NCBI RefSeq assembly: GCF_053078305.1
Contig: NZ_CP166879.1
Reading direction: 5' to 3' (one strand)
DNA length: 64,000 nucleotides
Shown here: positions 58,901 to 61,900 of the stretch, piece after piece
How the letters are laid out: every line of letters begins with the position of its first letter
Numbering within the stretch: position 1 is the stretch's first letter
Program-made: the position numbers

Positions 58901-61900
58901 TATATTCCCGGTTTGCCCAGTCATGGCGCCACAGACCAGAAACACCGCCACCGGTCTGCTTTTGCGGCACCCGTAGCACCTCGGGAATAGGCGGTTGCGC
59001 AACGCTTGCATGCCAGTGATCGCCTTCCTGTCCGCGCACAATCTCCCACGAACTGTAGCGATTATGATAATTCCCGCCGCCATCTTCCCAGTAATGCAAA
59101 TGATCGCTTATCAGGTGGGTATAGATCCCCGCCTTTTTAAGCAGCTCCGGCATGGAATCGTCAAACGGTTCTAACGGCCCCCACTCCCGATGCAGGAAGT
59201 TACATCGCCCGGTATGCAACTCCCGCCGGGCAGGCATACACGGCATACTGCCGACGTAACTGTTTTCAAAGGTGGCGGCATGAGCCGCCAGACGTTGGAA
59301 ATTAGGCGCTTTGGTTAACGCATCGCCATAAGGTGGCAGATAACGTTTATTCAGACTATCGAACAGCAGAATAATCGCTCTCATTACGCCCTACCTTATT
59401 GATTAATTAAATGCGGAAAATGTTGCTGAACCACTTCATAAATTTGCTGACCAATAGTTTCACCGTCCATAATATTCTCTATCGGGATCAGATATTGCCC
59501 TTGTTTCGGGTCAAGACTAACCACATCGAGTAATTTTTTGGAAATAGCAAAAATATCCGCCCAGTCGGTAAATCCGCCGACTTCACCTGCGGCGGTATGT
59601 TCCATTTCAACTTTGAAATCATATTTGGTCAGCGCTTTTTTAACGACCGTTTGTAACATAACGCTACTGCCTACACCGTAACCACAGACAAACAGAATAT
59701 TAATTGTATCTTTCATTTTTAAACCCTTAATATTTAATTAACCCGCGTAAGGACCAAGATAGAATGTTGCAGCGATAAATTTCAGAACTTCACAAATAGC
59801 AGGCCATACGGTTGCCCAGTCAAATATTCCTGTCCAGCCGACGCCATTTTCAGCAAGCCCGGTTAACGGAATAGCCCACACCGTACCGAAGGTCTGAATA
59901 ATACCCAGCAAGAACGTACAGATAATTACGGAACGGTATCCGCCCATGCGGTTTGCTAATACGCCAATTGGACCGCCAGAGAAAAACAGAGGTACAAAGC
60001 CAGGCAATACCATAATTGGGCTGTGAACCAGTAATAAGATCCCCATCGAAAAAATGGTGCCAAAAGTACAGAAGACGAAGCCTAACGTTGCGGCATTGGG
60101 TGAAAAAGGTAACAGCGCTGCAACATCGACAGCAGGAATAGCGTTAGGAATAAAGCGATCTTGCCAGCCTTTAAACGAACCGTTAATTTCGCCCACCATC
60201 ATGCGCACACCCTGCAGCAGAATGACCATATACATGGAGAACTGTAAGCCAAGGTTGATGATATAGATGTACCAGGGCTTGCCTTTCGCCATTAACTGGA
60301 CATTATCGATACCCGTTGATAGCAAGAAACCACCGACAAACAGCGTCATCACAATGGCGATAGCCGTTACGTTATGGTTAAAAATCGCCAGCCACCCGGG
60401 AAGTTTCAGGTTTTCAGCATCGTGCTTTTCAGGGTCACCAAATTTATGGGCGAATTTGGAGAAAAACCACAATCCCAACATCTGGTTATGGGCAATGGTA
60501 AAACCGGCATCTTTGGTAACTTTGGCAATGGGCTTAACAATGAGCGTGGTGGAGAACGCCCAGAATACACCCTTAATATTCCGGCAATAATAATGGATGT
60601 AGTCCAGCTAAAACCCAGCCAAAAGACAATCAACCATAATACCGCCTGAGAATGTGAAACACCGGTATTCCCTGTCAAAAATATCCCTTTGGCACCAGTA
60701 TACCGACCAAATAATACCAGCAGCAGGTTGGTAAAAAACGCCAGTACAAATACATACCCGACATAACCAAAATTATCCCCCAACGCAATTTGCGTTGCCG
60801 CTTTCATTGCGTAGGAATCCATTAAATATCCGTGAACACCATAGGCTTTACTTACGGCTTCTGCTACCGGTTTAAATGTTGCGGAAAACTGGAAACCACC
60901 AAATAACACCATCATTAATCCCACCATGGCGCTGACCATGCCGGTAATAATTTTTATTGGCGATTTCTTATCAAGGGCATAACCAATACCCACCAGCAAA
61001 CCAATTAAAATTGCCGGTTCAGTTAAAAACGTTTGAATAACATCTATGAATTTGGCAAACATCGTCGGAACGCCCTCCATAAGCGTACATTTCCGTTGTC
61101 AATGCATGAACCTTCTGCTGACGTTAATAATGTCTCAGGAAATTTTGTGTTTCGCTAAGCAATGCCTCTGTATGTATTCGGTAAGTGCACTGTAGTAATC
61201 AAAACAGTTCAATTAAAGATCTTATTTGATTATTTGTGATTTGATTTGCAAAAATAGAGCAATATATAACCGTGATCGATCGGTTATTATTAATCGATCG
61301 ATCACGATTATTATTTTGAGTGAATAGTTGTTGCCGAAAAATTTACTGCCGTGATGTATTTAAATTTTTACCAGCAGCGTCAACACTTCATAATGCGCGG
61401 TGTGAGGGAACATATCGAAAAGCTGCACCCGTTCAATGCGATAACCAGGCAGTTCTCGGATATCTTTCGCCATGGTTTGGGCGTTACAGCTGGAGTAGAT
61501 GATAAAACGCGGTGCCATCGTTGAGAGATAATCACACAGCGTTTTACCAATGCCGCGGCGCGGCGGGTTAACCAGCACCAGCTCCGGCACCTCCCCCTGA
61601 GCGGTGGCAAACTGAGTGGAGTCCAGCGCCTGAAATTGCAAACGCGTTAAGCCCAGTTCAGCGGCTGACTGCTTTGCACAGGCAATGGCCTCTGGCGCAA
61701 TTTCGATCCCGGTTAACTGCATGTCAGGCGTCGCGCAGTGTAAACCAAAGCCACCCACACCGCAGAACAGATCCCACATATGTTTAACCGGCAGCTGTCG
61801 TACCCAGTCGCGCGCGGTGGCGTACAGCTGGCTGGCGACCGCCGGATTAGTCTGGAAGAAACTTTGCGGACGGATCCACAGCGGCACATCGTTAAAACGC

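What the first reader, a model, noticed from the sequence alone, without database searches (positions are those of the whole stretch)
61270..61308. Operator-like palindrome with four GATC sites in the PTS/sulfatase promoter region
CGTGATCGATCG and its exact reverse complement are separated by a 12-bp AT-rich spacer, about 190-230 bp upstream of the EIIC start. Each arm contains the self-complementary GATCGATC, giving four Dam sites within 40 bp. Clustered GATC sites in an operator suggest methylation-sensitive regulator binding, as in known Dam-dependent phase-variable promoters; a CRP-like TGTGA motif lies just upstream (61240-61255).
Basis: partly seen in the sequence, partly recalled or inferred. 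Interest (0 to 1): 0.45.

Follow-up and report, generated by a model that had tools for sequence, protein, structure and literature searches.

The report
Conserved GATC palindrome between rlmC and PTS operon
A real, conserved 46-bp hairpin-forming palindrome with four Dam sites sits between the end of the rRNA-methyltransferase gene rlmC and the CRP-dependent promoter of an accessory PTS–sulfatase operon; it most likely ends or insulates rlmC transcription, and nothing here shows a methylation-controlled switch.

Summary
CGTGATCGATCG (61271-61282) and its exact reverse complement (61295-61306) flank a 12-bp AT-rich spacer. There are four GATC sites in 33 bp, and the dyad extends to 21-nt arms.

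The window is E. coli. The palindrome lies at the rlmC-proximal edge of a 3.5-kb island (PTS IIC, IIB, sulfatase) carried by 566 of 5,426 complete E. coli genomes, always as a single copy.

Published Cappable-seq data for O157:H7 EDL933 put the operon's only start site at window 61182, seen in stationary phase only. This makes the neighbouring CRP-like site a class I site (centre -60.5) and places the palindrome at -89 to -124, upstream of CRP. It is also 54 nt downstream of the rlmC stop on the same strand.

The palindrome is conserved in Escherichia and in Salmonella arizonae and diarizonae, where the island follows rlmC. It is absent from the orthologous promoters of Yokenella, Silvania and Leclercia, which keep the CRP and promoter core.

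The arms co-vary, while the loop differs in length and sequence.

Best reading (about 0.42): a 3'-end hairpin, terminator or insulator for rlmC. An operator for an unknown protein remains possible. The Dam/OxyR and Pap family tests fail. Function is unproven and interest is modest.

The parts
61271..61282 (.). Left arm of the palindrome, CGTGATCGATCG. On the operon/rlmC (-) strand this is the 3' arm of the hairpin. It contains GATC at 61274 and 61278.
61283..61294 (.). AT-rich spacer or loop, GTTATTATTAAT. It is 12 nt in Escherichia and 11 nt with unrelated sequence in Salmonella. It carries a -10-like TATTAT (61285-61290, + strand) upstream of a rare antisense TSS.
61295..61306 (.). Right arm, CGATCGATCACG, the exact reverse complement of the left arm. 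It is the 5' arm on the - strand. GATC at 61296 and 61300.
61266..61311 (-). Full 17-bp-stem hairpin on the rlmC/PTS sense strand: AUAAUCGUGAUCGAUCG, loop, CGAUCGAUCACGGUUAU. Free energy is -24.7 kcal/mol.
   Evidence: S. arizonae homologue
61307..61317 (-). A-rich 5' flank on the sense strand (AAAATAATAAT), which reads as the T-rich tail ATTATTATTTT on the + strand. It is conserved in all Escherichia and Salmonella alleles.
61318..61359 (.). Hypervariable 42-nt segment between the rlmC stop and the hairpin. Two barely alignable alleles exist within E. coli.
61360..62487 (-). rlmC (23S rRNA m5U747 methyltransferase). Its stop codon is 54 nt upstream of the hairpin on the same strand.
61253..61270 (-). 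U-rich segment following the hairpin on the sense strand (GGUUAUAUAUUGCUCUAU). It is conserved between Escherichia and Salmonella (15-18 of 18) but not in other genera.
61232..61253 (.). CRP-like site with core TGTGA-N6-TTGCA at 61235-61250. It matches 8 of 10 core positions, is centred at -60.5 and is conserved in all 9 orthologues.
61189..61194 (-). -10 hexamer TACAGT of the PTS operon promoter.
61182..61182 (-). Transcription start site of the PTS-sulfatase operon. It corresponds to EDL933 1024881 (Cappable-seq) and is seen in stationary phase only.
   Evidence: PMC10469882 Table S5; mapping
61296..61296 (+). Weak antisense TSS inside the right arm. It corresponds to EDL933 1024767 and is seen only in stationary phase with salt.
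   Evidence: PMC10469882 file 7; mapping
59738..61080 (-). PTS EIIC (EIIC-GAT/ascorbate family). It is frameshifted in this window by a 1-bp deletion near 60572.
59396..59716 (-). PTS EIIB.
57903..59384 (-). Cytoplasmic Cys-type sulfatase (CMPAR motif).
57860..57893 (.). GC-rich 14-bp-arm hairpin at the other end of the island, between the convergent artJ and sulfatase stops.

Best explanation
The palindrome is a hairpin-forming 3'-end element of the rlmC transcription unit. It acts as a non-canonical, possibly bidirectional, terminator or insulator and mRNA-end stabiliser at the junction between rlmC and the PTS IIC-IIB-sulfatase island.

RNA polymerase leaving rlmC transcribes a 17-bp stem with a 12-nt loop, flanked by an A-rich tract upstream and a U-rich tract downstream. 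This hairpin stops or pauses transcription, or protects the 3' end after Rho-dependent termination. As a result, rlmC transcription does not run through the CRP-dependent, stationary-phase promoter that starts 89 bp further on.

On the opposite strand the same hairpin, followed by AUUAUUAUUUU, would stop antisense transcripts leaving the AT-rich island before they enter rlmC.

On this reading the four GATC sites are a by-product of the (ATCG)n-like stem sequence, not a regulatory device.

Shown: the anatomy, position, conservation pattern, TSS and CRP geometry. Inferred: termination or insulation itself.
For: 1. **Position.** The element starts 54 nt after the rlmC stop on the same strand and is the only strong hairpin there (S. 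arizonae). Its free energy is -24.7 kcal/mol, with z = -5.6 against shuffles.
2. **Other rlmC orthologues.** They also have a strong hairpin after the stop, but a different one. K-12 has GCCGCATGTGCGGC plus REP sequences, which the island replaces entirely. Yokenella has GGGGAGAG...CTCTCCCC.
3. **Other inverted repeats.** All four other perfect inverted repeats of 12 bp or more in the window sit just after gene ends.
4. **Distribution.** The palindrome is present in every genome where the operon directly follows rlmC: 566 E. coli, 3 other Escherichia species, and S. arizonae and diarizonae. It is absent from Yokenella, Silvania and Leclercia, where the operon has other upstream neighbours. Those three still conserve the CRP site and -10.
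5. **Relation to the promoter.** The mapped TSS (window 61182) puts the element at -89 to -124, outside the PTS mRNA and upstream of the CRP site.
6. **Arms against loop.** The loop is free to vary (12 against 11 nt, 7 of 12 identical). The arms are 22 of 24 identical between E. coli and S. arizonae. The G-C pair becomes A-U in Salmonella, with a G.U intermediate in one E. coli lineage. The closing pair is U.G, C-G or U-A. On the sense strand 99.0% of cells pair, against 96.1% on the + strand.
7. **Flanks.** The A-rich and U-rich flanks are conserved, while the next 42 nt are hypervariable.
8. **Terminator scan.** The scan calls the element terminator-like on the + strand.
Against: - The U-tract on the rlmC strand is weak, with 4 U in the first 8 nt. 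My d'Aubenton-Carafa-style score is negative on both strands. The same score was also negative for the obvious GC-rich hairpin at the artJ end, so it discriminates poorly here.
- The scan tool calls a terminator only on the + strand and none in S. arizonae.
- 14 of 17 stem pairs never vary between Escherichia and Salmonella, although the loop and upstream spacer are essentially randomised. This points to a sequence-specific constraint beyond pairing.
- Covariation is not significant against shuffles (78/500).
- rlmC is weakly expressed (RPKM about 0-4 in PMC4048457), so the need for insulation is modest.
- Yokenella has a co-directional upstream gene but no hairpin before the promoter.
- No 3'-end mapping data were available.
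Confidence: 0.42

Rival explanations
1. The palindrome is an upstream operator for an unidentified dimeric or tetrameric DNA-binding protein that modulates the CRP-dependent PTS-sulfatase promoter from -106.5, by looping or anti-activation. The two 12-bp arms would be the half-sites, or two adjacent sites 22-24 bp apart. GATC methylation might be blocked as a passive footprint, as I recall for repressor- or CRP-bound GATCs in the mtl, gut and cdd regulatory regions of E. coli K-12 (own knowledge, not checked here).
For: - It is a perfect dyad in a regulated promoter region.
- The arm sequence, not only the pairing, is strongly conserved between Escherichia and Salmonella (22 of 24), while the loop and upstream spacer are not.
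- The conserved block runs uninterrupted from the palindrome into the CRP site.
- The operon is tightly regulated, with a stationary-phase-only TSS and low expression in 11 conditions. No regulator has been identified.
Against: - It is absent from the orthologous promoters of Yokenella, Silvania and Leclercia, which retain the CRP site, the TTTGATT heptamers and the -10.
- Spacer length differs (12 against 11 bp), and a natural 4-bp deletion removes part of one arm in 3 genomes.
- No regulator gene occurs in or next to any enterobacterial version of the operon.
- No other copy of the site was found in 5,426 E. coli genomes. The search would detect exact matches of roughly 19-21 nt or more.
- The centre is 46 bp from the CRP centre, about 4.4 helical turns and so out of phase.
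- No published motif was found.
Confidence: 0.2
2. The palindrome would be a Dam-methylation-sensitive operator that makes the operon phase-variable, as in agn43, gtr and opvAB (OxyR) or pap (Lrp).
For: - It has four GATC sites in 33 bp, the densest cluster in the window.
- GATCGATC is conserved in both arms in Escherichia and S. arizonae.
- It resembles the agn43 regulatory DNA. ATCGATCGAT..TAATAATAACC is shared.
- It matches the OxyR consensus at 12 of 20 positions at 61275 and 61262. Only 38 positions in the 64-kb window reach this score.
Against: - The OxyR dyad geometry is not met. The palindrome is GATCG-N12-CGATC (N11 in Salmonella), against GATCG-N7-CGATC in agn43. The consensus match of 12/20 is below agn43's 14/20.
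- The GATC pairs are tandem, 4 bp apart, and so lie on different helical faces.
- The site is at -106.5, not overlapping the promoter.
- The island has no PapI/PapB-like genes.
- S. diarizonae and 3 E. coli genomes have lost one GATC.
- The element is absent from orthologous promoters.
- No methylome report covers this locus.
Confidence: 0.06
3. The palindrome is a functionless junction relic. It would have been created or carried along when the island was joined to the rlmC 3' end. Its symmetry would be maintained by intrastrand template switching (quasipalindrome correction) and by slippage in the (ATCG)n stem, not by selection.
For: - It lies exactly where homology with the other genera's promoters ends, next to a hypervariable segment.
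- The symmetric G-C to A-U change and a 4-bp ATCG slippage variant are what template switching and slippage would produce.
- Covariation statistics are not significant.
- The island has no terminal inverted repeats or mobility genes that would give it another role.
Against: - Arm sequences are retained at the Escherichia-Salmonella distance (IIC 94-95%, sulfatase 85-87%, rlmC 88% amino-acid identity). Over the same distance the adjacent 43-nt spacer is 40% identical and the loop 58% identical.
- All 566 island-bearing E. coli genomes keep it.
- Its A/T-rich flanks are conserved too.
Confidence: 0.2

Closest known systems
Intrinsic, often bidirectional, terminators and 3'-UTR stabiliser hairpins of E. 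coli, including the REP/BIME elements that occupy this same rlmC-artJ intergenic region in K-12
   Same: - It is a stable stem-loop shortly after a stop codon, flanked by an A-tract and a U-rich tract.
- It lies between a housekeeping gene and a separately regulated downstream unit.
- It replaces the K-12 hairpins and REPs at the same locus.
   Different: - The stem is long (17 bp) and of mixed AU/GC content, with a 12-nt loop.
- The U-tract on the rlmC strand is interrupted.
- It is a single-copy sequence, not a dispersed repeat.
- The stem sequence is unusually conserved.
agn43 (flu) OxyR/Dam phase-variation region of E. coli K-12
   Same: - Both have clustered GATC sites embedded in ATCGATCG motifs.
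- They share ATCGATCGAT...TAATAATAACC.
- Both are AT-rich regulatory DNA of an accessory locus.
   Different: - agn43 has three GATCs in an OxyR site with GATCG-N7-CGATC geometry, and from my own knowledge the site lies just downstream of the TSS. Here the spacing is N12 or N11, the GATCs are in tandem pairs, and the position is -106.5.
- The consensus match is 12/20 here against 14/20 for agn43.
- No evidence of OxyR binding exists for this element.
Class I CRP-dependent promoters, such as lac with CRP at -61.5
   Same: The neighbouring motif is TGTGA-N6-TTGCA centred at -60.5 from a mapped TSS. It has a weak -10 (TACAGT) and a poor -35, is active only in stationary phase, and is conserved in nine taxa.
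   Different: This describes the promoter next to the palindrome, not the palindrome itself. CRP binding has not been tested. The site is 1 bp off the canonical -61.5.
LacI/GalR-type operators (14-20 bp dyads with a central CG)
   Same: Joined together, the outer halves of the two arms would give CGTGAT-CG-ATCACG, a LacI-like dyad. Each arm is centred on CG, and the two centres are 22 bp apart.
   Different: Each arm on its own matches that ideal 14-bp dyad at only 11 of 14 positions. No LacI-family gene is nearby. The site is far upstream of the promoter.

Membership tests
Dam/OxyR phase-variation switches (agn43, gtr, opvAB) | GATC sites lie inside OxyR half-sites with ATAG-N7-CTAT (GATCG-N7-CGATC) geometry, and the match to ATAGnTnnnAnCTAT-N7-ATAGnTnnnAnCTAT is good | tested here: not met
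   The spacing is GATCG-N12-CGATC here and N11 in Salmonella. The best consensus match is 12/20, against 14/20 for the K-12 agn43 region scanned the same way.
Dam/OxyR phase-variation switches (agn43, gtr, opvAB) | The regulator site overlaps or abuts the core promoter, so that occupancy decides ON or OFF | tested here: not met
   The palindrome spans -89 to -124 relative to the Cappable-seq TSS, upstream of the CRP-like site.
Dam/OxyR phase-variation switches (agn43, gtr, opvAB) | Heritable alternative methylation states of the GATC cluster occur in subpopulations | not testable with these tools
   No methylome data for this locus were found in the searchable literature.
Pap-type Lrp/Dam switches | Two GATC sites about 100 bp apart lie within two sets of Lrp sites, and PapI/PapB-like regulators are encoded nearby | tested here: not met
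   GATC spacing is 4, 18 and 4 bp. The island encodes only IIC, IIB and the sulfatase.
Rho-independent (intrinsic) terminator | A stable stem-loop lies shortly downstream of a stop codon on the same strand | tested here: met
   A 17-bp stem of -24.7 kcal/mol lies 54 nt after the rlmC stop, with z = -5.6.
Rho-independent (intrinsic) terminator | A U-tract (at least 5 U within about 8 nt) lies directly after the stem | tested here: inconclusive
   The sense-strand tail is GUUAUAUAUUGCUCU, with 4 U in the first 8 nt, and the discriminant score is negative. The + strand tail AUUAUUAUUUU passes the scan. No call was made in S. arizonae.
Rho-independent (intrinsic) terminator | Measured RNA 3' ends lie at the hairpin | not testable with these tools
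   The Term-seq paper for O157 Sakai (PMC7547250) has no supplementary tables held.
Dispersed palindromic repeats (REP/BIME, ERIC, MITE-like) | Many copies per genome occur in different intergenic contexts | tested here: not met
   Each of the 566 genomes has exactly one locus, hit on both strands, and the other 4,860 genomes have none. No Rfam match was found.
Class I CRP-dependent promoter (applies to the adjacent motif) | A CRP consensus half-site pair is centred near -61.5 of a mapped TSS, with carbon- or growth-phase-dependent activity | tested here: met
   The site is TGTGA-N6-TTGCA with centre -60.5. The TSS was seen in 4 of 4 stationary and 0 of 4 exponential conditions. The 22-bp site is 22 of 22 identical in Salmonella and 17-20 of 22 in three other genera. 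CRP binding itself was not tested.
Dedicated operator of the operon's own regulator | The site is conserved wherever the orthologous promoter is conserved, and a cognate regulator gene is linked | tested here: not met
   It is absent in Yokenella, Silvania and Leclercia although the promoter core is conserved. No regulator gene is linked in any version.

The most novel reading that the evidence does not exclude
The palindrome is a methylation-sensitive protein-binding site. An unidentified regulator, or OxyR in a non-canonical register, would protect one or both GATCGATC pairs from Dam. This would produce heritable ON/OFF states of a CRP-dependent PTS-sulfatase operon, which is specific to the O157:H7, O55:H7 and O145 lineages and some other E. 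coli lineages, and to Salmonella arizonae and diarizonae.
Probability: 0.06. Interest if true: 0.6.

Novelty: new member of a known kind. Interest (0 to 1): 0.27.

Why it matters
If it is a terminator or insulator, the element is ordinary. It illustrates how a horizontally acquired, catabolite-controlled operon is kept transcriptionally separate from the housekeeping gene it landed behind.

The more useful outcome is the map of this uncharacterised island's regulatory region in EHEC lineages:
- a mapped TSS;
- a class I CRP-like site;
- conserved TTTGATT heptamers as the better operator candidate;
- no linked regulator or EIIA gene.

If the small-probability Dam-sensitive reading were true, it would add a new, non-OxyR/Lrp-type epigenetic switch. 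That switch would control a sulfated-sugar utilisation system in O157:H7 and O145.

Tried and rejected
- **Dispersed repeat or regulon site: rejected.** BLAST of the 54-bp element against 5,426 E. coli genomes finds only the one locus in 566 genomes. A metagenome scan for TGATCGATCG-N8-14-CGATCGATCA gave more than 120 hits. All non-E. coli hits were GC-rich coding DNA or (GATC/GATT)n microsatellites.
- **Island terminal inverted repeat or mobile-element end: rejected.** The sequence has no partner at the artJ end, and the island carries no mobility genes.
- **Known RNA family: none.** All Rfam hits fell far below their gathering scores.
- **OxyR site: weak.** The consensus match is 12/20 and the dyad spacing is wrong.
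- **A promoter just 5' of the palindrome (TCGGCA-16-AATAAT), which would make it a +1 operator.** The scan predicts it here and in S. arizonae. The number of such calls matches the shuffle expectation. No sense TSS near EDL933 1024760 appears in the held Cappable-seq tables.
- **RNA covariation: too little variation.** 14 of 17 pairs are invariant, and the result is not significant.
- **Terminator discriminant score: negative for this hairpin.** It was also negative for an obvious GC-rich gene-end hairpin, so it is uninformative here.
- **Literature: nothing on the element.** Searches for ECs0940-42 and Z1087-89, for methylomes and for the arm sequence itself gave nothing. EDL933 RNA-seq shows both rlmC and the operon at very low levels, so read-through cannot be judged.
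- **Remnant in Yokenella: rejected.** The region downstream of rlmC there has a different GC-rich hairpin and no trace of the palindrome.
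Full report
**Observation.** The window sequence at 61270-61308 reads CCGTGATCGATCGGTTATTATTAATCGATCGATCACGAT. CGTGATCGATCG (61271-61282) and its exact reverse complement (61295-61306) flank the 12-bp spacer GTTATTATTAAT. With two mismatches the dyad extends to 21-nt arms at 61266-61286 and 61291-61311. GATC starts at 61274, 61278, 61296 and 61300.

Four GATC within 40 bp is the densest cluster in the window. Only 7 of 100 Markov simulations reached this density. Perfect 12-bp inverted repeats with short loops are expected 0.16 times per window, and five are observed.

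**Genomic context.** The window is E. coli, and the 279-bp intergenic region is 100% identical to O145 RM9872. Genes run potFGHI-ybjO-rlmC on the - strand. A 3.5-kb insert follows, with PTS EIIC (EIIC-GAT/ascorbate family), EIIB and a Cys-type sulfatase, also on the - strand. Then comes artJ on the + strand. In K-12 the convergent rlmC and artJ are separated by only 198 bp of hairpins and REP sequence. None of that sequence is retained, and the insert even replaces the last two rlmC codons.

The insert occurs in 566 of 5,426 complete E. coli genomes. These include O157:H7, O55:H7, O145 and a roughly 91%-identical second lineage. It sits at the same site in three other Escherichia species and in Salmonella arizonae and diarizonae. 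The palindrome lies at the rlmC-proximal edge, 54-89 nt after the rlmC stop (61360) on the same strand and 191-226 bp before the IIC ATG (61080).

**Promoter anatomy, from comparison and published data.** I aligned the nine orthologous upstream regions. The core conserved in all nine is TTTTGCAAATCAAATCACAAA (window 61232-61253, a TGTGA-N6-TTGCA CRP-like site), TTTGATT/AATCAAA heptamers, and a TAnnGT -10 (TACAGT, 61194-61189). From this I predicted a class I CRP promoter with a start near 61182.

The Cappable-seq atlas of O157:H7 EDL933 (PMC10469882, Table S5) lists a single gene TSS for the IIC gene, at 1024881. It was found in all four stationary-phase conditions and in none of the four exponential ones. 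That coordinate maps exactly to window 61182. The CRP-like site is therefore centred at -60.5. The palindrome spans -89 to -124, with its centre at -106.5, so it lies upstream of CRP and outside the PTS mRNA.

The same dataset shows one weak antisense TSS inside the right arm (window 61296, + strand, one condition). In the table parts that are held, it shows no sense-strand TSS immediately upstream of the palindrome.

**Conservation pattern.**
- Between E. coli and S. arizonae the arms are 22 of 24 identical, the A-rich flank 9 of 10, and the segment between hairpin and CRP 15 of 18.
- Over the same distance the loop is 7 of 12 identical and one base shorter. The 43 nt toward rlmC are 40% identical, and the 5' UTR 63%.
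- Within E. coli the 42 nt next to rlmC exist as two barely alignable alleles.
- The palindrome is absent from Yokenella, Silvania and Leclercia. In those genera the operon proteins are 78-91% identical and the CRP and promoter core is retained, but the upstream neighbour is not rlmC.
- Downstream of rlmC, Yokenella has a different GC-rich hairpin.

**Hairpin properties.** On the rlmC/PTS sense strand the element folds into a 17-bp stem with a 12-nt loop. Its free energy is -24.7 kcal/mol, with z = -5.6, and the S. arizonae version folds equivalently.

Variation keeps pairing intact. Pair 2/11 is G-C in most Escherichia, G.U in the PKF4 lineage and A-U in Salmonella. The closing pair is U.G, C-G or U-A. 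S. diarizonae has one A.C mismatch and so loses one GATC. On the sense strand 99.0% of cells pair, against 96.1% on the + strand. However, 14 of 17 pairs never vary, and neither count beats the shuffles convincingly.

Three E. coli genomes carry a 4-bp ATCG slippage deletion in one arm. As an intrinsic terminator the element is non-canonical on the rlmC strand, because the U-tract is interrupted. It is terminator-like on the + strand, with tail ATTATTATTTT.

**Is it a repeated or regulon site?** It is not.
- BLAST of the 54-bp element finds one locus in each of the 566 island-bearing genomes and nothing in the others.
- A metagenome scan for the arm pair returned the AT-spacer type only from this same E. 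coli locus. All other hits were GC-rich coding DNA or microsatellites.
- Rfam gave nothing.
- The island has no terminal inverted repeats.
- No regulator or EIIA gene accompanies the operon in any enterobacterial version.

**Testing the Dam and phase-variation idea.** The K-12 agn43 regulatory DNA shares ATCGATCGAT...TAATAATAACC with the palindrome, which is a striking resemblance. But agn43's GATC-II and GATC-III lie in a GATCG-N7-CGATC OxyR dyad, whereas here the spacing is N12 (N11 in Salmonella). The match to the OxyR consensus is 12/20 against 14/20 for agn43, and 38 positions in the window reach 12. The GATC pairs are tandem, 4 bp apart. The site is far from the core promoter, and no PapI/B-like genes exist. 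I found no methylome data for this locus. The defining features of the known Dam switches that could be tested are therefore not met, and methylation state itself remains untested.

**Interpretation.** I commit to the element being a 3'-end hairpin of the rlmC transcription unit. It would separate rlmC from the CRP-dependent promoter and, on the other strand, shield rlmC from antisense transcription out of the island. My confidence is 0.42. The supporting points are:
- its position after a stop codon;
- the fact that all four other perfect long inverted repeats in the window are gene-end hairpins;
- the presence of a different hairpin after rlmC in genomes without this junction;
- its strict association with the rlmC-adjacent configuration;
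- the free loop and the co-varying arms;
- the conserved A-rich and U-rich flanks.

The main weaknesses are the poor U-tract, the unusually strong sequence conservation of the stem, and the lack of 3'-end data.

The rivals are an operator for an unknown protein (0.20), a Dam-dependent switch (0.06), and a neutral junction palindrome kept symmetric by template switching and slippage (0.20). The remainder is unassigned.

**Verdict.** The feature is real and conserved. The element is unannotated and, as far as the searched literature shows, undescribed. It most probably belongs to a known kind, so interest is modest.

Noticed in passing
window 60572 (within 59738-61080, - strand): The PTS IIC gene is split into two ORFs by a 1-bp deletion (CACCC-TTAAT against CACCCGTTAAT in O145 RM9872). 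This is either a pseudogene in this strain or a sequencing error. Nine further substitutions separate this island from RM9872.
   Followed up: partly
window 61318-61359: The 42-nt segment between the rlmC stop and the palindrome flank exists as two barely alignable alleles within E. coli. One is shared by the window, E. whittamii and Escherichia sp. E1V33. The other is shared by O157, PKF4 and Escherichia sp. MOD1. The adjacent 236 bp are identical between the window and O157, which suggests a recombination breakpoint at about 61318.
   Followed up: partly
window 61196-61246: The heptamer TTTGATT/AATCAAA occurs three times (61197-61203 inverted, 61225-61231, 61240-61246). An inverted repeat at 61196-61210/61218-61232 lies between the CRP-like site and the -10. 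These elements are conserved in all nine orthologous promoters, so they are a better candidate for an operon-specific operator than the GATC palindrome.
   Followed up: no
L189 (E. coli KK05-19), aligned to window 61295-61298: Three of 566 genomes carry a 4-bp ATCG slippage deletion in the right arm. It shortens the stem and removes one GATC.
   Followed up: partly
window 61296 (+ strand): A published antisense TSS (EDL933 1024767, stationary phase with salt only) starts inside the right arm. The -10-like TATTAT in the palindrome spacer lies upstream of it, and the transcript runs antisense into rlmC.
   Followed up: partly
L010 and L011, about 2400-5900 and 9480-14400: In Silvania and Leclercia the same IIC-IIB-sulfatase operon lies beside an anaerobic-sulfatase-maturase-like radical SAM gene, two DUF202 (yidG/H-like) genes and an arylsulfotransferase-like gene. 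In Leclercia yidE-ibpBA follows downstream of the sulfatase. No EIIA or regulator gene accompanies the operon in any enterobacterial version.
   Followed up: partly
L014-L065: The sulfatase has 60-68% identical homologues in gut Firmicutes (Blautia, Dielma, Clostridium, Lachnospiraceae) and about 54% identical ones in Lokiarchaeota MAGs. This suggests the enzyme was exchanged horizontally among gut organisms.
   Followed up: no
L187 420-470 (K-12 flu/agn43 upstream): The agn43 OxyR/Dam region contains ATCGATCGTTTATATCGATCGATAAGCTAATAATAACC. It shares ATCGATCGAT and TAATAATAACC with the palindrome, with a 4-nt indel between them. This could be chance or common ancestry of AT-rich regulatory DNA, and I did not resolve which.
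   Followed up: partly
window 57860-57893: A perfect 14-bp-arm GC-rich hairpin (TTTGCCGGAGTGGG / CCCACTCCGGCAAA) lies between the convergent artJ and sulfatase stops, at the other edge of the island. It is probably a bidirectional terminator.
   Followed up: no
window 50593-50600: This is the only other GATCGATC in the window (GCATGATCGATCTCC). I did not examine it further.
   Followed up: no
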